This document shows positions 10,322 to 27,560 of a stretch of 42,145 nt of DNA, piece after piece. Within the stretch, counting starts at the first letter, position 1; every line of letters begins with the position of its first letter. The DNA comes from Escherichia phage vB_EcoS-Ro145c2YLVW: the sequence record NC_073322.1; one strand, 5' to 3'. The position numbers were made by a program, and so were the translations under genes. The notes beneath the pieces are model-generated. The model was not told the DNA's origin, did no database searches, and worked only from the letters and a program-made list of their open reading frames with translations.

Positions 10322-10348
10322 AAGGCCCCATTATGGGGCCTTAGTTTT
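10322..10348. terminator. bidirectional hairpin terminator
   Basis: AAGGCCCCA-TTA-TGGGGCCTT stem-loop followed by AGTTTT; sits between convergent genes. Confidence 0.6.
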
Positions 10349-10571
10349 AAACTTCCACGTCTATCACCAAATCATCAGGCATGGTTATGACTATTTTATC
10401 GTTTTCATAGAACGGGCTAAGAGGCTCATTTTCAGGCTGCAAACGTAAAGTTAGCTTTTTATCACCAAAATAATCTATGTAACGAACCCAGTACCACTCG
10501 TCGAATACCTGTACCTTTTCTCCGGGGCGTACATCTCTAGCCTTCTTTTGATTCGTAAATCTAATCGGCAT
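10347..10571 (-). CDS. hypothetical protein (74 aa), antisense moron
   Basis: ATG with AGGAGG SD; driven by class A promoter at 10598-10626; ends at the bidirectional terminator. Confidence 0.55.
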   Translation of the reverse strand: MPIRFTNQKKARDVRPGEKVQVFDEWYWVRYIDYFGDKKLTLRLQPENEPLSPFYENDKIVITMPDDLVIDVEV

Positions 10572-10597
10572 AAATACCTCCTGTTTAAGTTAACTGA

Positions 10598-10626
10598 ATA
10601 GTACCCTACTATATTGGGGTGTGCAA
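10598..10626 (-). promoter_or_regulatory. sigma70-like promoter, class A cassette
   Basis: Minus strand TTGCAC-17 nt-TACTAT; near-identical to cassettes at 512, 20344, 41428. Confidence 0.5.
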
Positions 10627-16102: not shown

Positions 16103-16515
16103 TGGGCTACTTTGAGGACTTAACCAAAGCGTTTGATGTGCCGTTGGTGGCCTTCGGGACCGCAAACGGCATCAGGGTTGCGCTTGAAAATATCGACGCG
16201 CCGACGTCAACCGATACGCCGTATCTGGCGAGTTACATGTTGCTGGCAGATACGGAACAGGCGGATTTGTTCTTCACCGAGCAACGCTCAGGTGTTTATC
16301 AGGTCAACATTAACTACGCGTCGGTGAAAGGTAGCGCGCCAATCAATAAAATGGCAGACTTACTTAACACGGTGTTTAAAGCAGGTAAGTCATTTTCACG
16401 TAACGACATCTGCGCCGAGGTTCAATCAGTTAGCCTGGGGCCGCTGATTGTAGAAAACGGATGGGCCAAAAGACCATTGTCAATTAACTTTATTGCATTC
16501 ACCAAGAGGCTGTGA
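16099..16515 (+). CDS. tail terminator-like protein (putative)
   Basis: Track ORF, position immediately upstream of major tail protein. Confidence 0.45.
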   Translation: MMGYFEDLTKAFDVPLVAFGTANGIRVALENIDAPTSTDTPYLASYMLLADTEQADLFFTEQRSGVYQVNINYASVKGSAPINKMADLLNTVFKAGKSFSRNDICAEVQSVSLGPLIVENGWAKRPLSINFIAFTKRL

Positions 16516-16517
16516 AT

Positions 16518-17684
16518 ATGGCTACAACTCCTTTTAAGGGCGCGAATACCGCGCAATTCTATGTGGCGGAAGTGACCCCGGGCGTAACACCAAGTAACCC
16601 GGTATGGTCGCCGTTGCGTAGCACTGGCGGCGTTCCTGCCGTAACCCGCGATGCGCTGACTTCCAACGAACTGGACGGCAGCCGTGAAACTACATCCATC
16701 CGCACTGGCAATAAGCAGGTAAGCGGGGAGTATGCCATCGAACTTAGCTCTCGTAGTCAGGATGATTTCCTGGCTGGCGCGATGACTTCTACGTGGCAGG
16801 ATGGGGTAGAGATTACGGGTGCCGAAATTACTGTCGCCCCCGCAGGTAAAACATTCACCCGCGCTGCCGGTAGCTTCATTACTGACGGTGTAGAAGTTGG
16901 TGACCTTATTGCGTTCACCGACTTAACCGGCGACAACGCAAAACCGTTTATCGTGACCGCGGTTTCTGCTCTTGTAGTTACGGGTGCGGGCATTCAGCAC
17001 ACGCTGACAGCAGAGACTGTAACCACCGACGCTAAAACTGGCGATAAACTGGAAACCGGTAACGCATGTAAGACGTTCTCCATCCTGACATGGTTCAAAG
17101 GACAGTGCGGGAACCCTGACGCGTACATGTTGACCAAAGGCGTGGAAATCTCCGGTTTCACCATTGAACAGGCCGTAAACGCGATGGTGACAGGCAGCTT
17201 CCCGTTCATCGGCCTGAGTCAGGAGATTCTTACCACGCCGCCGTCTGGCTCTGATTTCTCTCAGGTGACGTTCACGGACGAGCCGTTCTCTTCTGTAGAT
17301 GTGTCTGTGTTCGACGGTTCTACGCCGTTGCGTTGCGATACTCTCACTATCACCAACGATAACGGTGCTTCCGCGCAGTTCGAACTCGGCAACAGTAGCG
17401 TCGCGTTCGTGGAACGGGGGCGCGCAGCTAACACCTTTTCCATCTCCGGTAAGCTGTACGACATGACGATGATTCAGAAGTTTATCAACGAGCAGCAGGT
17501 AGAGATTAACTCTATTCTGGCGGGGGTAAACGGGGCTATGTCTTTCAGTTTGAAACGTGCGGAACTTACGGCGGTTACGCCTGAGATTGGCGGACCTGAG
17601 TCAATCACCCAGAGCATAGAAGGACAGTCCACAGGCAATCAATATCAATCTTCTATTGTAATACAGCGTATTAGCTACGCGTAA
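16518..17684 (+). CDS. major tail protein (putative)
   Basis: Large Thr/Ser/Gly-rich protein at canonical position; track ORF trimmed to ATG 16518. Confidence 0.6.
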   Translation: MATTPFKGANTAQFYVAEVTPGVTPSNPVWSPLRSTGGVPAVTRDALTSNELDGSRETTSIRTGNKQVSGEYAIELSSRSQDDFLAGAMTSTWQDGVEITGAEITVAPAGKTFTRAAGSFITDGVEVGDLIAFTDLTGDNAKPFIVTAVSALVVTGAGIQHTLTAETVTTDAKTGDKLETGNACKTFSILTWFKGQCGNPDAYMLTKGVEISGFTIEQAVNAMVTGSFPFIGLSQEILTTPPSGSDFSQVTFTDEPFSSVDVSVFDGSTPLRCDTLTITNDNGASAQFELGNSSVAFVERGRAANTFSISGKLYDMTMIQKFINEQQVEINSILAGVNGAMSFSLKRAELTAVTPEIGGPESITQSIEGQSTGNQYQSSIVIQRISYA

Positions 17685-17688
17685 GTAA

Positions 17689-17708
17689 AAGGCCCCGAAA
17701 GGGGCCTT
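17689..17708. terminator. bidirectional hairpin terminator AAGGCCCC-GAAA-GGGGCCTT
   Basis: Perfect 8-bp GC stem with GAAA loop between convergent genes; identical copy at 18218-18237. Confidence 0.6.
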
Positions 17709-17709
17709 A

Positions 17710-18204
17710 CTATTTACCGTGGTTCTCGTGGAACCCCAAATCTCTTTCAGCAACTCTCCTCGCGGCAACTGCATCTAGTATCGTCTTAAAGCACCCGATA
17801 TGTGTTTTTACGTTATTGTTGAATATCTGCGCGTACCACAACCTTTCTTTCGCGTTCCAGTAGACTCCGGTTACTCCTGATTTATTATTACGCTGTTTTG
17901 ACATATTTTTATGGTTTTCCGCATTGGACTTTTTAGCTAAGTTAAGCGGTCTATTGTTTATTCGGTCATGGTCTAGATGGTCTATTTGATCTGACGAGGT
18001 TAGCTTATTGTTAGGATTGTTTAAGTCCCAAGCTATACGGTGCGCCGCATGCCATTTACCCCGGAAAAATATCCTTCTATATCCGTCTCGCTGGACGGTA
18101 CCTGCTTCCTCTCCAGCCTTAGCCCTCCCGGACCGGGTTACTCTGTTAAATATCCTTCCTGAAATTAAGTCGTATATGAAAAATTCATTCCAATCCATAA
18201 TCAT
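17710..18204 (-). CDS. HNH homing endonuclease with AP2-type DNA-binding domain
   Basis: HNH-type motifs (YRRIFFRGKWHAAHRIAW, IDHLDHDRINN) and C-terminal GVTGVYW...W segment. Confidence 0.8.
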   Translation of the reverse strand: MIMDWNEFFIYDLISGRIFNRVTRSGRAKAGEEAGTVQRDGYRRIFFRGKWHAAHRIAWDLNNPNNKLTSSDQIDHLDHDRINNRPLNLAKKSNAENHKNMSKQRNNKSGVTGVYWNAKERLWYAQIFNNNVKTHIGCFKTILDAVAARRVAERDLGFHENHGK

Positions 18205-18217
18205 CTCCTATTGTGAT

Positions 18218-18237
18218 AAGGCCCCGAAAGGGGCCTT
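18218..18237. repeat. second copy of AAGGCCCCGAAAGGGGCCTT hairpin
   Basis: 20/20 nt identical to 17689-17708; followed by T run on plus strand. Confidence 0.6.
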
Positions 18238-18241
18238 TTTC

Positions 18242-18472
18242 TTACTCATCAATATTACTCCTGTACTCCCGTAACTTCTCCAGACTCTCAATTGCTTCCG
18301 CTAAGTCGGTTCCTGTGTCCTTGTGCCCCCGCAAGCCCATACACAATAGCTTCTTCAATGCGTGCTGTAACGCCGGGTCGCGGATGTCGAAGGCACGTAG
18401 CACGTCGTAAACGTCTACTGTCATAGTGCTGCCGTGAGTGTTTGTCATTGTGCGGTTGTATTTTGAAGTCAT
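18242..18472 (-). CDS. hypothetical protein (76 aa)
   Basis: Track ORF between the two HNH genes. Confidence 0.5.
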   Translation of the reverse strand: MTSKYNRTMTNTHGSTMTVDVYDVLRAFDIRDPALQHALKKLLCMGLRGHKDTGTDLAEAIESLEKLREYRSNIDE

Positions 18473-18485
18473 AAATCAATCTCCC

Positions 18486-18956
18486 CTACTCATGGTTTTC
18501 ATGAAAACCGTATTTACTCTCGGCGGCTTTACGCGCGGCAACCGCTACATCAAAATCGTCGTAAAGCCCTAAATGCACTTGTTTGTAGTTAACTTTTATA
18601 AACGCGCGCCACTTACCCGCGGCTTTGTGGAAACTTACACCTGTAGCCCCGGATTTATTTATCTTTCTCATAGTTTTATTTTTACTGTCCCCTGTATTGT
18701 CGGTGGCGCGTAGATTTTCTATTCTATTGTCTAGCCTGTTATGGTTTATGTGGTCTATTTGAGTTTTCCTGTCTAAGTCGCATTTATTATAAAGACACCA
18801 TGCTATGCGGTGGACATACACTGTTTTACCACCCATACCGCAGCACAGATAGCCTCTTACACCAACCGTACCAACCTCAGCACCAGTAGATATCCTGGTA
18901 ACCTGCCCCGTCTCAGGGCAGTATTTAAATTGTTTTGAAACATCAAGATACTTCAT
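18486..18956 (-). CDS. HNH homing endonuclease with AP2-type domain (paralog)
   Basis: VYVHRIAW, IDHINHNRLDN and GATGVSF...W motifs; paralogous to 17710..18204. Confidence 0.8.
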   Translation of the reverse strand: MKYLDVSKQFKYCPETGQVTRISTGAEVGTVGVRGYLCCGMGGKTVYVHRIAWCLYNKCDLDRKTQIDHINHNRLDNRIENLRATDNTGDSKNKTMRKINKSGATGVSFHKAAGKWRAFIKVNYKQVHLGLYDDFDVAVAARKAAESKYGFHENHE

Positions 18957-20083
18957 CTTAGCATCTCCGGTGAGATTGAAAGCCTACCTACTTCCCCGAA
19001 CTCTGAACTATAGGTTATGACATTAGCGGACCTCTTAGACATCCACCCGCCGCGAGAAGCATATGCATCTTTCGCCGCGAGAGTGCGATGTTGTTCCACT
19101 ACCATATTCCTACTTTCTACAATCTTTTGATGGTGGAGATGCCCGACATGTGCGTAACTGTACTCGCTTTCGCCAAATGCTTTTCTGAACTTAGCTATCA
19201 TAATGGGTTCGACCACCTCAAACCGGCATTTATGCCCGTGTGTAAAGAACAGTGTCGTTTTACCGTGTTGCACCATCTTGTAAACATCCGGCGACGTATC
19301 GACGAACACACGCGGCTCATTGTCGTACAGCGTACTGAACATCTCAGCCAACCAAATCATTCCGCTTTCGTCGTGGTTCCCTTGCACGATAAGCAAGCGA
19401 ACATTTTTATGCTTAACCAGCGCCATACCAACAACACGGCGTACCATACGAATCATGTAGCGGACTAGTTTCTGGTAGCGCGTGTCCGCATCAAGAACAT
19501 GACCGCTCGCTGGCGTAACGGCATCCAGACTATCGAAGTGTGCGAAGTCCCCGAGCAGATTAATGACTCCTGTTCCTGCATCTGGCGCTTTCTGGAATGC
19601 CGCATCGAACCATCGGGAGAACAGGTCTTCAGCAATCTTCATATCCCAGTCGTCGCCGCTCTCGTCGGCCCAGGCCAGCATGCCGAGATGGAAATCAGAT
19701 ACCGTGTAAAGATTGAGTAGTTTGTCGTCACGTTTGGCTCGAGTCGCTTTAACAGGCGCAACTGGGGTAATCTCTGACTTCATGCCTTCAACCACGGCTT
19801 TCATCAACTCAACCTGACGTTCGGCATCGGTGTCGGTCTTAACCCATTGCAACTTAGTGTTGCCGAACTCGTCTACCAGTGACGACGTTCCTTTAATCTT
19901 GTAGCCGTCTGGCACAAGGTGACTAACATCACGACCATGACCTACGCCTTTCTTCGCCAGCTTCGCTTTACGGATACGAATAACGCGGTCTGAGATGCCG
20001 TATTTACGGGCAATGTCGATATTCTTCATCCCGACGTTCAATTCTTCCTGTAACTGTTCGTCGGTTATTTTCTTCTGGGCCAT
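18953..20083 (-). CDS. calcineurin-like metallophosphoesterase with N-terminal HTH domain
   Basis: Ordered motifs DFH, GDFAHFD, GNHDE, THGHK, GHLHH match the metallophosphoesterase signature; N-terminal 110 aa has an HTH-like segment. Confidence 0.75.
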   Translation of the reverse strand: MAQKKITDEQLQEELNVGMKNIDIARKYGISDRVIRIRKAKLAKKGVGHGRDVSHLVPDGYKIKGTSSLVDEFGNTKLQWVKTDTDAERQVELMKAVVEGMKSEITPVAPVKATRAKRDDKLLNLYTVSDFHLGMLAWADESGDDWDMKIAEDLFSRWFDAAFQKAPDAGTGVINLLGDFAHFDSLDAVTPASGHVLDADTRYQKLVRYMIRMVRRVVGMALVKHKNVRLLIVQGNHDESGMIWLAEMFSTLYDNEPRVFVDTSPDVYKMVQHGKTTLFFTHGHKCRFEVVEPIMIAKFRKAFGESEYSYAHVGHLHHQKIVESRNMVVEQHRTLAAKDAYASRGGWMSKRSANVITYSSEFGEVGRLSISPEMLR

Positions 20084-20121
20084 GCTTACTTCCTCGTGTT
20101 TAGGATTTGTCCTATACTAGC

Positions 20122-20313
20122 TCACTTCTCGTTAACATTCGAGTTGCACGCCCAGATTAAAATAAATACCCACGGCAGCAGAACCCAACCAAGAAACAGG
20201 TTAGCCATGAATATCGCCAACTTCGCTTTATGGTTACGGAAATATGCAACCAGGAAAGGCGCGAAATAAGCGAGCAGTGCAAACAGAATTAAGGAAACTG
20301 GTAAACTTGACAT
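20122..20313 (-). CDS. small membrane protein (63 aa, two predicted TM helices)
   Basis: Track ORF trimmed to ATG 20313 with AAGGGG SD; own class A promoter. Confidence 0.5.
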   Translation of the reverse strand: MSSLPVSLILFALLAYFAPFLVAYFRNHKAKLAIFMANLFLGWVLLPWVFILIWACNSNVNEK

Positions 20314-20343
20314 TTTAAACCCCTTCATTGTTGGTGTAAGTGA

Positions 20344-20372
20344 ATAGTACCCTATTATATTGGGGTGTGCAA
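20344..20372 (-). promoter_or_regulatory. sigma70-like promoter, class A cassette
   Basis: Minus strand TTGCAC-17 nt-TACTAT; 30/32 identical to cassette at 10598-10626. Confidence 0.5.
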
Positions 20373-20480
20373 GTAATGTGATAGAATAATTTTGCGCCTA
20401 GTGTCGCACACGAAAAGCGGGTGGTTCCCGTCTGGCGCATTTATCGATAACCTGTAACCTCTTAACCAAAGGATTAAAGA

Positions 20481-20900
20481 ATGAAACTTTCTGATTTTTA
20501 TTTCGAAGAGAAAGCACTGGTAGGCAAGAAAATGCCGATTCTGCTGCCGAATGGCGAAGACTCCGGCGAGTGGCTTAATGTTGTAAGCCCTGATGCGGAT
20601 GCCGCCGTTAAAGCGGGGCGTGCTTTCATTATCGCGTACCGTCGCGGACTGGCGCGTTTTGAAGAACTGGAAAAAACCGCTAAAGCCTCCGGCGACTATA
20701 CAGAATATAACCTGGCGATTAATGAACTGGCGGAAGACCTCAACCGGCAACTCGCGGCTGAAGTCGTAAACGGCTGGAGCTTCGACGACGAGCCTTTCTC
20801 TAAGGAAGCGTTTAACAAATTGCTCGACCAGTTCAAAGGGCTTGGAACCCAGGTAGCCGCGTTCCATAACGCTGAGCGCAAAGCATTACAGGAAAAGTAG
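20481..20900 (+). CDS. tail assembly chaperone (putative, by position)
   Basis: First of two ORFs directly upstream of tape measure gene. Confidence 0.45.
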   Translation: MKLSDFYFEEKALVGKKMPILLPNGEDSGEWLNVVSPDADAAVKAGRAFIIAYRRGLARFEELEKTAKASGDYTEYNLAINELAEDLNRQLAAEVVNGWSFDDEPFSKEAFNKLLDQFKGLGTQVAAFHNAERKALQEK

Positions 20901-20932
20901 ACGCGCTGTACAGGTTCGCCACCTACGAGTTT

Positions 20933-21265
20933 GTGGATAAGCATAAAATCAGAGAGTTTGATTCTATAGCTGACGGACATGAACAGGCGCTTATCGCGAT
21001 GGGTGTAATCGATAAGAAAAAACGTGCAGCGCGACGGGGTGGGCCAGAATGTCCGCCCCTTTTCATATCCACCTTTGAGACGTATTGCGACATTAAGTTT
21101 ACGCGACACGTGCGCGAGGACGCTGTAGTATTGTTTGCAAGAGAATCCGTTACGTGGCAAGACCTGAAAGCCTATCTCGACGTTACACAAAAACAGCTTA
21201 GCCTGTTCGAGATAGACATTATCATGGGCTTAGAAGCAATCTTTGAAGGTAGAAACCATGGCTGA
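20933..21265 (+). CDS. second tail assembly chaperone-position ORF
   Basis: GTG start; frame is -1 relative to upstream ORF and open from 20876, but no canonical slippery heptamer seen. Confidence 0.35.
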   Translation: MDKHKIREFDSIADGHEQALIAMGVIDKKKRAARRGGPECPPLFISTFETYCDIKFTRHVREDAVVLFARESVTWQDLKAYLDVTQKQLSLFEIDIIMGLEAIFEGRNHG

Positions 21266-23528
21266 TATCGCTAGCTTGATAGTACGAGTATCCGCAACCG
21301 GCGTCGATAAAGTCACATCACAACTGAACGGGCTTACTAAAGCCGCAGGCGCTGCGGCTGCCGCCGTTGTCAGCCTGGAAACCGCTAAGCAGGTGTTCAG
21401 TGCGCTGGTGGACTCCCAGCGAAACTTCGATAAGCTGAACTCCGGCCTCATCACAATGACCGGGAGTGCTGAGAACGCGGCTAAGGCTTTCAGCGTCCTG
21501 CAACAGTTCGCGAAAGAAACCCCGTACGGCCTCAACCAGGCGGTGGAAGGCTTTACTAAACTTGTAGCCCTCGGCCTGAACCCCAGCAAAGAGGCGTTAA
21601 TCTCCTACGGCAACACCGCCGCTGCGATGGGTAAAGACCTTAATCAGATGATTGAGGCCGTGGCGGACGCCAGTACATTTGAATTTGAGCGACTGAAAGA
21701 GTTCGGTATTAAGTCTTCCCAACAGGCAGATACCGTTTCGTTCACGTTCCGCGGCGTAACGACCACAGTTAAGAAGAACTCCGAAGAAATTCAGAAATAC
21801 CTGCTAAACATCGGTAACACTGATTTCGCCGGGGCGATGGAAACGCGTTCGAAAACCCTTGACGGGCAGTTATCTAGCCTCGCGGACTCCTTTGACGGCC
21901 TTGTACTTGCGGTGGCGCAATCAGGTTTCGGCGACGCCGTAGGTGAGCAAGCTGCGACAGCGGAAGATGCCATCACGGCCCTAACCGATGCCATCGCGTC
22001 TAATGAGATAGCAGCCACGCTCCAGGATTGGGTGACACTGTTCAATGAATCGTTCAAGTTTATTTCTGACGCTTTGAACGATCTGGCATACGACACCGAG
22101 GACAAATCCGTGGATATGTCCGACTCGCTGGGGACTATCCCGGACGCTATTCGTGAGTGGTTGCCTGACATTCAGCAGACATTCCACGAGGTTATTGCGT
22201 GGTTCCAGCGCATTGACGATTACGCGGTCGCGTTAGGCCAGACCCTCGCCGACGTGTTCGACCCGAGCAAAACGGCAGCGCTAACATTTAAAAACCTGAC
22301 CGCAGAGGCCGACGCCGCATACGCCGCCAGCATAAAACGCGCAGAGGCCGAATCACAGGCTATCACCAACAGGTCTAAGCAGCGTAAGAAAGAAATTGAG
22401 GAACAGCGCAAGCAGTATGACGAGCGCAAGAAGCAAGAAATTGACTTAGCCAGCCTTGTTAATAAAAAGAGCGGAAATGGTGGAACCGGAAATACCAACG
22501 ACAAAGACGCGAAAGCCGCCGCTAAGAAAGCGGAGCAATTGCGTAAACAGGCCCAGGATTATCTCGACACTTTGGCCCGTCAGAACAACGACGAATTAAA
22601 GGCTATTGACGCACAGGAACAGCAGAAACTGGCTAAGGCAAAAGAGTTCTACAACCAGGGCGCGTTGGCTCTGAAAGAATACGAGCAAGCAAAAACGGCT
22701 ATCGTCCTCGAAGCCGGACAAGCACGGCAGGAAGAGCTGGATAAGCGAGAGAAAGAACGGCAGGAAAAGCAGCAGAAAGGTGAAGACTTCATGGCTCAGA
22801 TTATGGGTCAGAATGCCGCCGAGCTTGAGCTTCTGGAAATTCAGGAACAACAAAAACTGGACGTTGCGGACCGATACCGCGAACAGAACCTTATTAATGA
22901 GGAGCAGTACCAGGCTGCGGTTAATGCCATAAATGACCAATATGCTTTGAAGCGCGCCAACGCTACAGGTAACGCTTTCGGGATGATGGCGGATAACATG
23001 AAGGCCTCACTAGGGGAGGCGTCGTCCGCGTACAAAGCATTCGCTATTGCTCAGGCCACAATCGCCACATACACCTCCGCTATTGAGGCTTATAAATCAG
23101 CGTCCGCTATCCCCGTGATTGGCTGGGTTATGGGGCCAATTGCCGCCGCCGCCGCCGTAGCCGCCGGTATGGCTAACATAGGTAAGATTCGTTCGGCTCG
23201 TGAACAGGGTGGTCAATTATCCGCGGGCCAGATGTCCACCATCGCTGAACGCGGTAAACCGGAGGTTATCATGCCTGCGGGGGCATCGCGTGTGCGCACC
23301 GCGCAGCAGATGAAAGAGATTATGGGGCAAAACGGCGGAAACTCCGGCGGTGACAGCGTGACAATTGTCAACAACACCACCGGGCGAGTTGATTCTGCGG
23401 TAACAGAACGTGATGACGAAGGGCGTTTACGTATTATAATCAGTGAAACAGTATCGGCGGCGTTACAGGACAGCAACAGCGCAATCTCTAAGTCACGCCG
23501 TGCTACACGAAACCAGCCGGGGTATTAA
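21258..23528 (+). CDS. tail tape measure protein
   Basis: 757 aa, long coiled-coil central region, Gly-rich C-terminal segment; canonical position. Confidence 0.8.
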   Translation: MADIASLIVRVSATGVDKVTSQLNGLTKAAGAAAAAVVSLETAKQVFSALVDSQRNFDKLNSGLITMTGSAENAAKAFSVLQQFAKETPYGLNQAVEGFTKLVALGLNPSKEALISYGNTAAAMGKDLNQMIEAVADASTFEFERLKEFGIKSSQQADTVSFTFRGVTTTVKKNSEEIQKYLLNIGNTDFAGAMETRSKTLDGQLSSLADSFDGLVLAVAQSGFGDAVGEQAATAEDAITALTDAIASNEIAATLQDWVTLFNESFKFISDALNDLAYDTEDKSVDMSDSLGTIPDAIREWLPDIQQTFHEVIAWFQRIDDYAVALGQTLADVFDPSKTAALTFKNLTAEADAAYAASIKRAEAESQAITNRSKQRKKEIEEQRKQYDERKKQEIDLASLVNKKSGNGGTGNTNDKDAKAAAKKAEQLRKQAQDYLDTLARQNNDELKAIDAQEQQKLAKAKEFYNQGALALKEYEQAKTAIVLEAGQARQEELDKREKERQEKQQKGEDFMAQIMGQNAAELELLEIQEQQKLDVADRYREQNLINEEQYQAAVNAINDQYALKRANATGNAFGMMADNMKASLGEASSAYKAFAIAQATIATYTSAIEAYKSASAIPVIGWVMGPIAAAAAVAAGMANIGKIRSAREQGGQLSAGQMSTIAERGKPEVIMPAGASRVRTAQQMKEIMGQNGGNSGGDSVTIVNNTTGRVDSAVTERDDEGRLRIIISETVSAALQDSNSAISKSRRATRNQPGY

Positions 23529-24900: not shown

Positions 24901-25217
24901 TATTACACTACACCCGTAACGAAGACGGTACTTTCGACCGCAAACGGTACAACGTACCGCCGATGGAATACGTCGTTGCTAACATCCCTGACGGGGTGCC
25001 GGTACGTATTTACCGGGGCGAGATTGGCGAGGATACGGAAGTAACGGAAGATTTCGAAGCGCTGAAAGAAGACGACGTATTCCATATTATCGAAGGTGCT
25101 GGTGGCGGTGGCGGTGTTCTCGGAAAACTGCTTGACCCATTGGGTGTGCTTAAGTTTATCACTAAACTGATTTCCCCGTCGCAGACAACGCCTAAAACTA
25201 GTGTAGCTAACCAGTAA
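24891..25217 (+). CDS. tail assembly protein (lambda I-like position)
   Basis: Small protein with poly-Gly linker; C-terminal 17 codons repeated at N-terminus of next gene. Confidence 0.5.
   Translation: MALILHYTRNEDGTFDRKRYNVPPMEYVVANIPDGVPVRIYRGEIGEDTEVTEDFEALKEDDVFHIIEGAGGGGGVLGKLLDPLGVLKFITKLISPSQTTPKTSVANQ
25164..25214 (+). repeat. 51-bp direct repeat, copy 1
   Basis: AAACTGATTTCCCCGTCGCAGACAACGCCTAAAACTAGTGTAGCTAACCAG; 49/51 identical to 25278-25328. Confidence 0.8.
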
Positions 25218-25259
25218 TCCGGAGGGGGTTGTGTAGGGAAAGAGCGTAAACCTTGGGGG

Positions 25260-27560
25260 GTGCCGAAGTATTTCAAAAAACTGATTTCCCCGTCGCAGAA
25301 AACGCCTAAAACTAGTTTAGCTAACCAGCAGGCGGAGTCGCCAAACAACAACCTGACGGACCGAAACAATAAACCTCGCCCGTATGAGCGGTCGTATGAT
25401 ATTTGCGGCAGGGTACAGACTATCCCTAATGACCTCATGACTACCTATAAAATATTCGATGAATCCGGCCGAATTATCGAGTATGGATACTACGACGCCG
25501 GTCGAGGTTACCTGGATATCAAAGCAGAAGACATTACTGACGGCGATACTAAAGTACAGGAGATTACAGGTACATCTGTCGCGGTGTATGCGCCGTTTAC
25601 ATCGCCTAACAATACAAATACTCCTCAGCTTCTGGTGGGGGAACCTATCAATCAGAATCTTTATATAACTATCGCTTCTAATGAAGTAGACGGAGCCGTT
25701 CTTAAAGCCCGTAACGATATAAGGGTTAACCCTAGCGACACGGGCCGTGTGAGATATGACTCTGCTACAAAAATTGGATACCTGTATGATGGCACGGGGG
25801 ATTCTGGCTTCGCGGAAATATTATCTGTTGGCGATACCGCGTCGTTCAATAACTTTGACGTTCCGGACGTAACAAATACCAACGGCAACTTTCGTGTTCT
25901 TTATGTCGATAACTTCGAGCTGCGGGTCGACACCGGCGGCGCGTCTAACTGGGCTGCTTTAGGTTCAACCACCTATTCACTTTCCCCGAGAAGTGACACG
26001 TGGGTGGGCCCTGTGAATACGTATGAAAGAACATTAACCGACTGGACCACCTTAAACCGCCTGGAAGTTGAACGAGTAGTTGCTAACATTGCCGCCGCGA
26101 ATGGCATGTACAAGGACAACGGCAGTAAATTGCGCACCGCTGTAACTGTAGAGCTTCAATATCAGCTACTAGATGAATCCGGGGCACCGTACGGAAGCAT
26201 TTACTCGAAACAGGCCACTATATCCGGGCGGTCCGCAGATTACACCGGGGTCACCATTTACGCCGACCTGCCCGTGCGGTCGAAAGTCAGGGTACGCGCC
26301 CGGCGTGTTACCAACCTGGACCTCGATTTCGAGGGCACCGTGGTAGACGAGGTTTCCTACATCAACCTTTACGGGCAGGTCCGCGACACTACGCCGCATT
26401 ACGGCAACCGTACTACTGTACACTCTGCACGTAAGCCGACGCCGCGGGCCGCAGAGATTAAGCAGCCGCAGCTACGTATGGTCGCGACGGAGATGGTGTA
26501 CAAATACCTCGGCAACGGCGTATTTGACGCGGTTATGACACCTAATACCCAAGCCGTTCAGTCGTTAATACGCCTGGCGCGGGACCCAGTAGTAGGAAAC
26601 CTCAATCTCACCACGGCTAACATGGATAAGTTGTTGGCTACGCAAGCAGAGATTGAAAATTATTTCGGAAATGCTGAGGCTGGGCAGTTCTGCTACACAT
26701 TCGATGATTACAAAACGACTATGCAGGACATCATCAGCACAATAGCTGATGCTATTTTCTGCACGCCATATCGTAAAGGGCAAGACATATTACTGGATTT
26801 CGAGCGCCCTCGTATGGGGCCGGAGATGGTATTCACCCACCGCAGTAAAACAACGGCATCCGAGAGGTGGACTAGGACATTCAACGACGCTCAGGTATAC
26901 GATAGTCTTAAGTTCTCCTACATCGACCCAGATACCAACGTAAAAGAGACTATTAGCATTCCAGCCGAAGGTGGTGTTAATACCGAAACGTATGACTCCA
27001 AGGGTATACGTAATTATCGCCAGGCGTACTGGGCGGCGTACCGCCGCTACCAGAAAAACCTGTTGAAGAAGGTAACGGTATCATTCACGGCGACAGAAGA
27101 AGGGATTTTTGCAATGCCTGGGCGTGCGGTAAGTGTGGTAAAAGGTTCGCGTATGGCTCCACAAGACGGCTATGTAATCGCCGTTAACGGGCTTACGCTT
27201 ACTCTTTCTCGGCCGGTCGCGTTTACTCCTGGGGATGACCACTCACTGATTCTTAAGAAGCGAGACGGGGGAGTTCAAAGTGTTGCCGTTGTGCCTGGAA
27301 GCCACGACCGTGAAGTGGTTATGCTATCCGCGCCGCAGGAGGCAATTTACACGGGGAATAGCGCACTAAAAACTGAGTTTTCATTCGGCAACGAAGCAAG
27401 GCATAATGCTCAGATGATTCTTGTTTCTACAGTTGACCCCGGAGATGACAGAACAGTTAAGATTACCGGGATTAACTATGAAGCAGATTTCTATAAATAC
27501 GACGGCGTCGCGCCTTTCGGTCGCGGTTTCTCCGACGGATTCAGCAACGGTTTTAGTTAA
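25260..27560 (+). CDS. central tail fiber / tail tip protein (J-like, putative)
   Basis: 766-aa protein downstream of tail-tip assembly genes; GTG start after CTTGGGGGG. Confidence 0.65.
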   Translation: MPKYFKKLISPSQKTPKTSLANQQAESPNNNLTDRNNKPRPYERSYDICGRVQTIPNDLMTTYKIFDESGRIIEYGYYDAGRGYLDIKAEDITDGDTKVQEITGTSVAVYAPFTSPNNTNTPQLLVGEPINQNLYITIASNEVDGAVLKARNDIRVNPSDTGRVRYDSATKIGYLYDGTGDSGFAEILSVGDTASFNNFDVPDVTNTNGNFRVLYVDNFELRVDTGGASNWAALGSTTYSLSPRSDTWVGPVNTYERTLTDWTTLNRLEVERVVANIAAANGMYKDNGSKLRTAVTVELQYQLLDESGAPYGSIYSKQATISGRSADYTGVTIYADLPVRSKVRVRARRVTNLDLDFEGTVVDEVSYINLYGQVRDTTPHYGNRTTVHSARKPTPRAAEIKQPQLRMVATEMVYKYLGNGVFDAVMTPNTQAVQSLIRLARDPVVGNLNLTTANMDKLLATQAEIENYFGNAEAGQFCYTFDDYKTTMQDIISTIADAIFCTPYRKGQDILLDFERPRMGPEMVFTHRSKTTASERWTRTFNDAQVYDSLKFSYIDPDTNVKETISIPAEGGVNTETYDSKGIRNYRQAYWAAYRRYQKNLLKKVTVSFTATEEGIFAMPGRAVSVVKGSRMAPQDGYVIAVNGLTLTLSRPVAFTPGDDHSLILKKRDGGVQSVAVVPGSHDREVVMLSAPQEAIYTGNSALKTEFSFGNEARHNAQMILVSTVDPGDDRTVKITGINYEADFYKYDGVAPFGRGFSDGFSNGFS
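25278..25328 (+). repeat. 51-bp direct repeat, copy 2
   Basis: AAACTGATTTCCCCGTCGCAGAAAACGCCTAAAACTAGTTTAGCTAACCAG. Confidence 0.8.

What the first reader, a model, noticed from the sequence alone, without database searches (positions are those of the whole stretch)
17689..20372. Inverted accessory island inserted between major tail protein and tail assembly chaperones
A 2.7-kb block on the opposite strand interrupts an otherwise co-linear tail module. It carries two paralogous HNH-AP2 endonucleases, a 76-aa ORF, an HTH-fused metallophosphoesterase and a small two-helix membrane protein, has its own class A promoter (20344-20372) and ends at a bidirectional terminator (17689-17708). This looks like a moron or hotspot cargo cassette rather than structural genes. 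Its gene set does not match any phage defence or counter-defence module I can name, so it is the strongest candidate here for an undescribed accessory system.
Basis: partly seen in the sequence, partly recalled or inferred. Interest (0 to 1): 0.65.

Follow-up and report, generated by a model that had tools for sequence, protein, structure and literature searches.

The report
Immunity-nuclease operon invaded by homing endonucleases
The backward-facing gene block in this E. coli phage's tail region is a fixture of its whole phage subfamily: a superinfection-immunity gene plus a DNA-binding nuclease-like enzyme, into which two selfish homing-endonuclease genes have inserted, so it is a patchwork of known kinds of parts and not a new accessory system.

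Summary
The window is Escherichia phage vB_EcoS-Ro145clw (Kagunavirus, Guernseyvirinae).

The block is not a coherent new system.
- The membrane protein belongs to Pfam Imm_superinfect (the T4 Imm family). It sits at this position in about 362 of 371 relatives.
- The HTH-metallophosphoesterase (phrog_704) has all five catalytic motifs. Its closest folds are PolD-DP1, Mre11 and SbcD. It occurs in more than 2,000 phage genomes in unrelated contexts.
- Both HNH genes are clean insertions relative to phage Bas74.
- HNH-2 plus the last ~300 bp of the phosphoesterase gene are 98% identical to Salmonella Jerseyviruses, whose flanks are only ~67-82% identical. HNH-2-bearing alleles carry 24 clustered substitutions in the phosphoesterase gene's last 85 nt. 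Together these are a homing and co-conversion signature.
- HNH-1 sits between two copies of the terminator hairpin and occurs in only three phage records.
- The 76-aa ORF belongs to a very large small-protein family of unknown function.
- Relatives such as K1G carry a 3'-phosphatase and a P-loop kinase in place of the 76-aa ORF and the HNH genes.

Verdict: conserved core plus cargo slots. These are new members of known kinds, of low to moderate interest.

The parts
20341..20382 (-). Sigma-70-like promoter of a phage-specific repeated type. The -35 is ATCACA at 20377-20382, the -10 is TATAAT at 20354-20359, and the conserved 32-nt motif lies at 20341-20372.
   Evidence: The scan scored 10 of 12. 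The motif has four copies in the genome (512+, 41428+, 10595-, 20341-); two matches to its 28-nt core at up to 3 mismatches compare with 0.00 expected. It is conserved at the same place in K1G, Bas74, KMB36, DUEC01, 536P11 and NTEC3.
20122..20313 (-). Imm-like superinfection immunity protein. It is 63 aa from the ATG at 20313, which has a GAAGGGG ribosome-binding site; an alternative ATG at 20328 gives 68 aa. It has two predicted transmembrane helices.
   Evidence: Pfam PF14373 Imm_superinfect, 48.3 bits against a cut-off of 27.9. phrog_1039 'immunity to superinfection', E 1e-22. tblastn finds it in 362 phage records, essentially all Guernseyvirinae.
18953..20083 (-). HTH-fused metallophosphoesterase (376 aa). 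It has an N-terminal three-helix HTH (residues ~8-44), a small beta/alpha linker domain (61-103), and a calcineurin-like phosphoesterase core (119-376) with all five motifs.
18974..19036 (-). Recoded stretch at the 3' end of the phosphoesterase gene (gene nt 1048-1110). This is the putative recognition or cleavage region of HNH-2 in endonuclease-less alleles.
   Evidence: 24 of the 28 positions that separate all HNH-2-bearing alleles from all HNH-2-less alleles fall here. They include whole-codon synonymous swaps (AGG/CGT for Arg, TCC/AGC for Ser). DUEC01 switches allele type at about nt 1047.
18467..19249 (.). Tract of ~98% identity shared with Salmonella Jerseyvirus S100. It covers HNH-2 plus the last ~300 bp of the phosphoesterase gene and reads as a homing/co-conversion tract.
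   Evidence: The sliding identity is 95-100% inside the tract and about 65-87% outside. Whole-gene identities to S100 are 81.8% for the phosphoesterase, 68% for the tube gene and 67% for imm.
18486..18956 (-). HNH-2, a free-standing HNH(-AP2) homing endonuclease gene of 156 aa. The inserted segment is 18473-18952. Its ATG overlaps the phosphoesterase stop codon (ATGA).
   Evidence: Pfam HNH_3 at 38.6 bits, AP2 at E 0.0011. phrog_99, E 1e-54. It is a clean 480-bp insertion relative to Bas74, K1G and DUEC01. 37 phage records in two genera carry it at 95-99% identity.
18242..18472 (-). 76-aa ORF, a member of a very large family of small phage proteins of unknown function (a beta-hairpin followed by three helices).
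18218..18237 (.). Terminator hairpin copy 2 (AAGGCCCCGAAAGGGGCCTT). It is followed by a T-run on the + strand only.
   Evidence: In endonuclease-less relatives there is a single hairpin with an A-run before it and a T-run after it, which makes it bidirectional.
17710..18198 (-). HNH-1, a free-standing HNH(-AP2) homing endonuclease gene of 162 aa (164 aa from the ATG at 18204). The inserted segment is 17709-18216.
   Evidence: Pfam HNH_3 at 26.5 bits against a cut-off of 24.8. phrog_99, E 2e-49. It is a 508-bp insertion relative to Bas74, K1G, DUEC01 and NTEC3, flanked by the duplicated hairpin. Only 3 phage records carry it.
17689..17708 (.). Terminator hairpin copy 1. It is followed by TTTT on the minus strand and is the end of the leftward operon.
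17639..17688 (+). 3' end of the tail tube gene plus the spacer, carrying substitutions specific to HNH-1-bearing phages. This is the putative HNH-1 target region.
   Evidence: Diagnostic synonymous positions lie at tube-gene nt 1122-1146 and nt 1168-1171. The tract of ~95% identity to 536P11 spans 17460-18239 while the flanks are 63-87% identical.

Best explanation
The block is the leftward 'imm-mpe' accessory operon that all Guernseyvirinae carry between the tail tube and tail-chaperone genes. In Ro145clw two selfish homing endonuclease genes have enlarged it. It is a mosaic of independent parts.

Shown here:
- A promoter of a type used four times in this genome lies upstream of imm.
- imm and mpe are conserved at this position in nearly all relatives.
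- HNH-2 is inserted exactly at the ATGA overlap where the mpe stop codon meets the next gene's start codon.
- HNH-1 is inserted just after the operon's terminator hairpin and carries a second copy of that hairpin.
- Both HNH genes are present or absent at fixed sites, and each is more conserved between phages than its flanks.
- Each lies next to a cluster of allele-specific, mostly synonymous substitutions in the neighbouring conserved gene.

Inferred:
- Host RNA polymerase transcribes imm, mpe, HNH-2 and the 76-aa ORF. It reads through the first hairpin, which has no U-tract in this direction, into HNH-1, and stops at the second hairpin.
- Imm sits in the inner membrane and blocks DNA entry of superinfecting phages, as T4 Imm does.
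- The HTH-phosphoesterase is a metal-dependent Mre11/SbcD/DP1-like nuclease or phosphodiesterase that works on nucleic-acid ends. In K1G-type and T1-type phages it works alongside a 3'-phosphatase and a P-loop kinase, which Ro145clw lacks.
- During mixed infection each HNH enzyme cuts endonuclease-less relatives near the 3' end of the adjacent gene (mpe for HNH-2, the tail tube gene for HNH-1). Repair from the endonuclease-bearing genome copies the gene and its flank across.
For: Identity: the region is 100% identical to MG852086.2, a Kagunavirus.

Conservation of the core:
- 371 related records match the region.
- Imm is found in 362 records.
- About 285 records carry an MPE at 80% identity or more, and 2,037 carry one at any identity.
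- The literature calls the immunity gene a Jerseyvirus core gene (PMC8425127).

Independent distribution of the parts:
- MPE occurs without Imm, HNH or the 76-aa ORF in Webervirus, Dhillonvirus and Vibrio phages.
- The 76-aa family occurs in unrelated early regions.

Homing evidence:
- Empty sites exist in Bas74, K1G and DUEC01.
- A 98.3%-identity tract at 18467-19249 contrasts with ~80% flanks against a Salmonella phage.
- 24 diagnostic substitutions cluster in 63 nt of mpe.
- The same pattern, weaker, holds for HNH-1 and the tube gene.
- Three different HNH lineages occupy the same post-mpe site.
- HNH-AP2 is a described homing endonuclease class, and these genes are known to flank conserved genes (PMC10448857).

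MPE enzyme evidence:
- The catalytic motifs are invariant.
- The fold matches nuclease-type phosphoesterases best.

Alternative cargo: the MPE, HAD_PNKP phosphatase and kinase trio is syntenic in K1G and Webervirus.

Transcription: the imm gene of a related Kagunavirus is detected in RNA-seq (PMC12645636).
Against: - No activity was tested for any of the five proteins.
- Pfam scores for the phosphoesterase are just under the gathering cut-offs.
- The AP2 domain is below threshold.
- Identity tracts and recoded stretches could also arise from ordinary mosaic recombination without endonuclease action.
- Expression timing is unsettled. The promoter type is shared with the presumed early region, but the one available transcriptome of a relative classes imm as late (PMC12645636).
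- The 76-aa ORF remains without a function.
Confidence: 0.8

Rival explanations
1. The five genes form one coherent, previously undescribed accessory (defence or counter-defence) system.
For: The genes are co-oriented, tightly packed and share one promoter and terminator. None of them hits a known defence family in PADLOC apart from weak 'homing endonuclease' models.
Against: The genes have different distributions: Imm in 362 records, MPE in 2,037, the 76-aa ORF in 772, HNH-2 in 37 and HNH-1 in 3. Only Ro145clw has this exact set in a collection of 50,697 phage records. Bas74 lacks both HNH genes, and K1G lacks the 76-aa ORF and the HNH genes.
Confidence: 0.04
2. The locus is a functional inter-phage competition island. 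Imm excludes late-coming phages, and the two HNH endonucleases act as weapons that cut essential or conserved genes (tail tube, mpe) of co-infecting relatives. They would then be kept for the advantage they give the phage and not only as selfish DNA.
For: An exclusion gene and two endonuclease genes lie in one operon. The inferred targets are conserved genes. The endonuclease genes spread across genera that infect different hosts.
Against: The HNH genes are rare among relatives (3 and 37 of about 371), as expected for transient selfish elements. Co-location may reflect only that the slots tolerate insertions. No competition data exist.
Confidence: 0.2
3. The conserved function of the operon is nucleic-acid end healing or repair, for example of nuclease-damaged tRNA or DNA. 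The phosphoesterase would work with a polynucleotide 3'-phosphatase and a 5'-kinase. Ro145clw is then a reduced version that lost those partners, so its phosphoesterase acts alone or is partly redundant.
For: The MPE, HAD_PNKP phosphatase and P-loop kinase genes are adjacent and in the same order in K1G-type Kagunaviruses (about 53 records) and in Webervirus, at 42%, 57% and 49% identity.
Against: Most Guernseyvirinae (about 330 records) have the 76-aa ORF instead of the phosphatase and kinase, yet keep an intact phosphoesterase. No ligase is present. The top fold matches are DNA nucleases, not RNA-repair phosphoesterases.
Confidence: 0.25
4. The HNH proteins are domesticated. They would serve the phage as AP2-type regulators or as nickases for replication or packaging and would no longer be mobile.
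For: The AP2-like C-termini bind DNA in other systems (PMC10448857). Both ORFs are intact, with HNH_3 motifs.
Against: They are absent from most close relatives, which are viable phages. They are 98% identical across genera whose flanks are only 67-82% identical. They are far from the terminase genes.
Confidence: 0.05

Closest known systems
T4 Imm (Pfam PF14373, Imm_superinfect)
   Same: It is a small inner-membrane protein with two hydrophobic helices. It scores above the Pfam gathering threshold. It is annotated as superinfection immunity in many relatives.
   Different: It is 63-68 aa in a virulent siphovirus, embedded in the tail gene cluster. Exclusion has never been shown for Guernseyvirinae, and which phages it would exclude is unknown. 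NTEC3 has an unrelated 108-aa gene in the same slot.
Free-standing HNH-AP2 homing endonuclease genes: the family of Magnani et al. 2004, the 'IPA-HNH' genes of ICP1 (PMC10448857), and by analogy T4 Seg/Mob genes such as SegG
   Same: The architecture is an N-terminal HNH_3 domain with an AP2-like C-terminus. The genes sit between genes, next to conserved genes. They are present or absent at a fixed site, lie in identity tracts that extend into the neighbouring gene, and lie next to substitutions in the putative target.
   Different: Cleavage sites and activity are untested, and the AP2 match is below threshold. HNH-1 is bracketed by a duplicated terminator hairpin. That slot holds a Rha/ANT gene in Jerseyviruses.
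Mre11 / SbcD / archaeal PolD DP1 nuclease-type metallophosphoesterases
   Different: There is no sequence-level match to any solved structure. No Rad50/SbcC partner is annotated in the genome. It has an N-terminal HTH domain and a small linker domain instead of the Mre11 capping domain or the DP1 OB fold. The margin over non-nuclease phosphoesterases is small.
The phosphoesterase, polynucleotide-phosphatase and kinase gene trio of phage T1 relatives (Drexlerviridae) and K1G-type Kagunaviruses
   Same: The first gene, the HTH-phosphoesterase, is orthologous at 42-95% identity.
   Different: Ro145clw lacks the HAD_PNKP phosphatase and the P-loop kinase. It has the 76-aa ORF and two HNH genes in their place.

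Membership tests
Imm_superinfect (T4 Imm-like superinfection immunity proteins) | Match to Pfam PF14373 above the gathering score | tested here: met
   48.3 bits against a cut-off of 27.9, E 9e-13, covering profile positions 2-42 of 42. phrog_1039, E 1e-22.
Imm_superinfect (T4 Imm-like superinfection immunity proteins) | Small protein with two membrane-spanning hydrophobic helices | tested here: met
   Read directly from the translation: LPVSLILFALLAYFAPFLVAYF and LAIFMANLFLGWVLLPWVFILIWAC, separated by RNHKAK.
Imm_superinfect (T4 Imm-like superinfection immunity proteins) | Blocks DNA entry of superinfecting phage | not testable with these tools
   This needs plating or DNA-injection assays on cells that express the gene.
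Free-standing HNH-AP2 homing endonuclease genes | HNH nuclease domain (Pfam HNH_3) above the gathering score | tested here: met
   HNH-1 scores 26.5 bits and HNH-2 scores 38.6 bits against a cut-off of 24.8. phrog_99 'HNH endonuclease', E 2e-49 and 1e-54.
Free-standing HNH-AP2 homing endonuclease genes | C-terminal AP2 DNA-binding domain | tested here: inconclusive
   Pfam AP2 matches only HNH-2, at 19.7 bits against a cut-off of 33.3, E 0.0011. The best PDB sequence hits are AP2 proteins, at E 0.57 (WRI1) and E 0.041 (AP2IX-6).
Free-standing HNH-AP2 homing endonuclease genes | Presence/absence polymorphism at a fixed site, with intact empty sites in close relatives | tested here: met
   The 480-bp and 508-bp insertions have exact boundaries relative to Bas74, K1G, DUEC01 and NTEC3.
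Free-standing HNH-AP2 homing endonuclease genes | The element and an adjacent tract are more similar between genomes than the surrounding DNA (horizontal spread with co-conversion) | tested here: met
   The tract at 18467-19249 is 98.3% identical to Salmonella phage S100, against ~80% outside. The tract at 17460-18239 is ~95% identical to 536P11, against 63-87% outside.
Free-standing HNH-AP2 homing endonuclease genes | Sequence-specific cleavage of the endonuclease-less allele, with the carrier's own allele immune | not testable with these tools
   Only indirect evidence exists. 24 clustered diagnostic substitutions lie in mpe nt 1048-1110. A smaller cluster lies at the tube gene's 3' end.
Calcineurin-like metallophosphoesterase superfamily | Five metal-binding and catalytic motifs (DxH, GDxxD/H, GNH[DE], H, GHxH) | tested here: met
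   D130-x-H132, G178-D179-x-x-H182, G235-N236-H237-D238, H282 and G314-H315-x-H317 are invariant or at least 90% conserved in 85 homologues at 31-49% identity.
Calcineurin-like metallophosphoesterase superfamily | Pfam Metallophos or Metallophos_2 above the gathering score | tested here: not met
Mre11/SbcD-type nucleases | Closest structural neighbours are Mre11/SbcD | tested here: inconclusive
Mre11/SbcD-type nucleases | Partner Rad50/SbcC ATPase encoded alongside | tested here: not met
   No such gene lies in the operon, and none is annotated anywhere in the 67-gene genome.
Known anti-phage defence systems (PADLOC-DB) | Any component matching a defence-system model | tested here: not met
   Only weak 'homing endonuclease' model hits (E 5e-4 to 1e-3) and one faint PbeC hit appear. 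Nothing matches the phosphoesterase, Imm or the 76-aa ORF.
Moron (an independently transcribed accessory cassette inside a late operon, variably present among relatives) | Own promoter and terminator, on the opposite strand within the structural module | tested here: met
Moron (an independently transcribed accessory cassette inside a late operon, variably present among relatives) | Variable presence among close relatives | tested here: inconclusive
   Not met for imm and mpe, which are present in almost all of the ~371 relatives. Met for the distal cargo.

The most novel reading that the evidence does not exclude
The pairing of Imm with the HTH-phosphoesterase, conserved across Guernseyvirinae and expressed from an early-type promoter inside the tail module, could be a functional two-gene unit with a role not yet described for phage phosphoesterases. 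One possibility is a DNA-guided nuclease that destroys DNA of superinfecting phages that get past Imm. Another is a phosphodiesterase that removes nucleotide immune signals. The widespread 76-aa protein could be a third, uncharacterised partner.
Probability: 0.1. Interest if true: 0.55.

Novelty: new member of a known kind. Interest (0 to 1): 0.25.

Why it matters
The practical gain is correct annotation. The published Ro145clw record and paper list four of the five genes as hypothetical proteins and do not mention homing endonucleases or superinfection immunity (PMC6627115). This phage is proposed as a biocontrol agent.

The locus also gives a clean natural example of homing endonuclease traffic between E. 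coli and Salmonella phages. It has a mapped ~780-bp shared tract and a candidate 63-nt target region, both directly testable.

Two open items have wider reach:
- The HTH-phosphoesterase family has 4,647 clusters at 50% identity.
- The 76-aa protein family has at least 6,770 clusters and no Pfam entry.

Both are very common in phages and neither has a known function.

Tried and rejected
1. I first read the 76-aa ORF as a remnant of K1G's ATP-binding protein, because it matches the C-terminal part of PHROG profiles, one of them labelled 'ATPase'. I rejected this. BLASTP against the K1G protein finds nothing. The same 76-aa gene stands alone and intact in Bas74, Jerseyviruses and unrelated phages.

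3. Sequence searches of the phosphoesterase against the PDB found no phosphoesterase, either with the single sequence or with a profile. Only the fold search worked.

4. Two of the three large protein searches returned only relatives at 93% identity or more and added no diversity. The representative-library search supplied the diverse alignment.

5. I looked for Imm next to the phosphoesterase outside Guernseyvirinae. The genes upstream of it in Webervirus, Dhillonvirus and a Vibrio phage have no Imm domain.

6. The literature gave no functional study of this operon. One transcriptome of a relative mentions only the imm gene, with coarse timing.

Full report
**Identity of the window.** The region 16500-21300 is 100% identical to Escherichia phage vB_EcoS-Ro145clw, MG852086.2 (Kagunavirus, Guernseyvirinae). 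Another 370 phage records match it, mostly Salmonella Jerseyviruses and Escherichia Kagunaviruses. The window is the whole, rotated genome.

**Check of the observation.** ORF listing and the GenBank table agree on five minus-strand genes between the tail tube gene (16512-17684) and the tail assembly chaperone genes (20481-20900 and 20933-21265). Strand skews flip across the block.
- The two HNH proteins are 38% identical, E 2e-29. They are the only HNH genes in the genome, and both pass Pfam HNH_3.
- The AP2 assignment is plausible but below threshold.
- The 376-aa protein has weak Pfam phosphoesterase hits and a strong phrog_704 hit. Its N-terminal HTH is supported by a GerE hit, by HTH-family hits in many homologues, and by a three-helix bundle in a model with pLDDT 92.9.
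- The small membrane protein passes Pfam Imm_superinfect.
- The hairpin at 17689-17708 is present. An identical copy lies at 18218-18237.

**Position and conservation.** K1G, Bas74, KMB36, DUEC01, NTEC3, 536P11 and the Jerseyviruses S100 and KE17 all have a leftward block at the same place. In each it starts with the promoter, then an immunity gene (NTEC3 has an unrelated gene there), then the HTH-phosphoesterase.
- tblastn finds Imm in 362 records.
- It finds the phosphoesterase in 2,037 records, about 285 of them at 80% identity or more.
- A published comparison calls the immunity gene a core gene of Jerseyviruses (PMC8425127).
The promoter-proximal half of the 'island' is thus a fixed feature of the subfamily.

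**The variable half.** Downstream of the phosphoesterase, relatives differ.
- K1G-type phages (about 53 records) carry a HAD_PNKP-type phosphatase and a P-loop kinase.
- Most others carry the 76-aa ORF, about 330 records at 76% identity or more.
- Additions to the 76-aa ORF include a 66-aa and a 52-aa ORF in DUEC01, a 66-aa ORF plus HNH-1 in KMB36, HNH-2 in NTEC3 and S100, a third HNH lineage in KE17, and a Rha/KilAC-ANT gene in Jerseyviruses.
- Only Ro145clw combines HNH-1 and HNH-2.

**The HNH genes are homing endonuclease genes.** Against Bas74, the window has two clean insertions.
- The first is 480 bp, at 18473-18952. It lies exactly between the phosphoesterase stop codon and the 76-aa start codon, which overlap as ATGA in Bas74. 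In Ro145clw the HNH-2 start codon takes over that ATGA, and the insert supplies a new ribosome-binding site and ATGA for the 76-aa ORF.
- The second is 508 bp, at 17709-18216. It lies immediately after the terminator hairpin and ends with a second copy of the hairpin.
- HNH-2 is 98.4-98.6% identical in 36 other records from both genera.
- Against Salmonella phage S100, identity is 98.3% across 18467-19249, which covers HNH-2 plus the last ~300 bp of the phosphoesterase gene. The rest of that gene is ~80% identical, and the tube and imm genes are 67-68% identical.
- I compared three HNH-2-bearing alleles with four HNH-2-less alleles. Of the 28 diagnostic positions, 24 fall in gene nt 1048-1110 (window 18974-19036). 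They include whole-codon synonymous swaps. DUEC01 changes allele type at about nt 1047.
- This is what a recoded, cleavage-immune target next to a homing endonuclease gene looks like, with a co-conversion tract on the same side.
- HNH-1 shows the same pattern more weakly. It occurs in three records. Its tract of ~95% identity at 17460-18239 sits among flanks of 63-87%. A cluster of synonymous diagnostic positions lies in the last 45 nt of the tube gene.
- Three HNH lineages occupy the post-phosphoesterase site in different phages. This fits published observations that homing endonuclease genes gather next to conserved genes (PMC10448857).

**Transcription (inferred).** The motif copies at 512 and 41428 lie upstream of the two clusters of small rightward ORFs next to the replication genes. 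The copy at 10595 drives a second reverse-strand single-gene cassette, which ends in a similar hairpin.
- The operon therefore probably uses host RNA polymerase, as the presumed early genes do.
- On the minus strand, hairpin 18218-18237 is followed by ATCACAA, with no U-tract, and then by the HNH-1 ribosome-binding site. Hairpin 17689-17708 is followed by TTTT.
- On the plus strand the situation is reversed. The insertion has split a formerly bidirectional terminator into two one-directional halves.
- A transcriptome of a related Kagunavirus detects the imm gene but classes it as late (PMC12645636), so the timing is open.

**The phosphoesterase.** The family is large: 4,647 clusters at 50% identity have E at most 0.001.
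- The five catalytic motifs are invariant or nearly so across 85 homologues at 31-49% identity.
- No solved structure matches by sequence.
- No Rad50/SbcC partner is annotated.
- In Webervirus and K1G-type phages the gene is followed by orthologous phosphatase and kinase genes. In Dhillonvirus it sits before the terminase genes, and in a Vibrio phage it sits before another HNH gene.
- My reading, which is an inference, is a DNA-binding, metal-dependent nuclease or phosphodiesterase that processes nucleic-acid ends.

**The 76-aa ORF.** It is an intact member of a very large family of small proteins: 772 phage records and at least 6,770 clusters with no Pfam domain. The family is also found in unrelated early regions. 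The model is confident, at pLDDT 87, but has no meaningful PDB neighbour. Its function is unknown.

**Comparison with known systems.** No component matches a defence-system model. The parts belong to known kinds: T4 Imm-like exclusion proteins, HNH-AP2 free-standing homing endonuclease genes, and the phrog_704 phosphoesterase shared with T1-like phages.

**Verdict.** The 'undescribed accessory system' reading is not supported, because the genes are inherited independently. The novelty is limited to new members of known kinds, plus a well-resolved homing signature.

Two readings remain untested: that Imm and the endonucleases together serve inter-phage competition, and that the phosphoesterase has an unrecognised role.

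Noticed in passing
window 25106-25328: The window carries an extra 114-bp tandem unit inside the large J-like tail gene compared with GenBank MG852086.2. It also differs at about 31 single bases genome-wide, so it is a slightly different version of Ro145clw.
   Followed up: partly
window 10322-10626 (minus strand): There is a second reverse-strand mini-cassette of the same design inside the head/neck module. It has the same promoter motif (10595-10626), a 74-aa ORF of unknown function (10347-10571), and a GGCCCC-N-GGGGCC hairpin followed by a T-run (10322-10341).
   Followed up: partly
L012:1963-2770 and L009:4918-5723 (Jerseyviruses S100 and KE17): A Rha plus KilAC/ANT-domain gene sits between two copies of the same terminator hairpin, in the slot where Ro145clw has HNH-1. 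The hairpin-bounded slot therefore accepts different cargo.
   Followed up: partly
L002:2714-4880 (K1G) and L007:4004-6232 (Webervirus Alina): The HTH-phosphoesterase, a HAD_PNKP-type phosphatase and a P-loop kinase lie in the same order in two different phage groups, at 42%, 57% and 49% identity. This suggests an old three-gene end-processing module that Ro145clw lacks.
   Followed up: partly
window 18242-18472: The 76-aa protein belongs to a family of at least 6,770 clusters with no Pfam entry. It has strongly conserved residues (Y5, D20, Y22, P33, Q36-H37, K40-K41, C44, G46, R48-G49, K51-D52) and a confident predicted fold with no match among solved structures. Public names for its members, such as terminase, ATPase and phosphodiesterase, look like annotation errors.
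   Followed up: partly
L009:3001-4671, L010:3953-5750, window 18486-20083: Three HNH lineages only 32-35% identical to one another sit immediately downstream of the phosphoesterase gene, in a Jerseyvirus with a divergent allele, a Vibrio phage and Ro145clw. The 3' end of this gene is a recurrent landing site for homing endonucleases.
   Followed up: partly
Jerseyvirus records such as S100 versus KE17, UPWr_S2 and VSe101: Jerseyviruses carry two very different phosphoesterase alleles, about 85% and about 55% identical to the Ro145clw protein. The gene itself has been exchanged between lineages.
   Followed up: no
L013:4677-5003 (phage NTEC3): In NTEC3 the imm slot directly behind the conserved promoter holds an unrelated 108-aa gene with no Pfam match. 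The first gene of the operon is therefore also replaceable.
   Followed up: no
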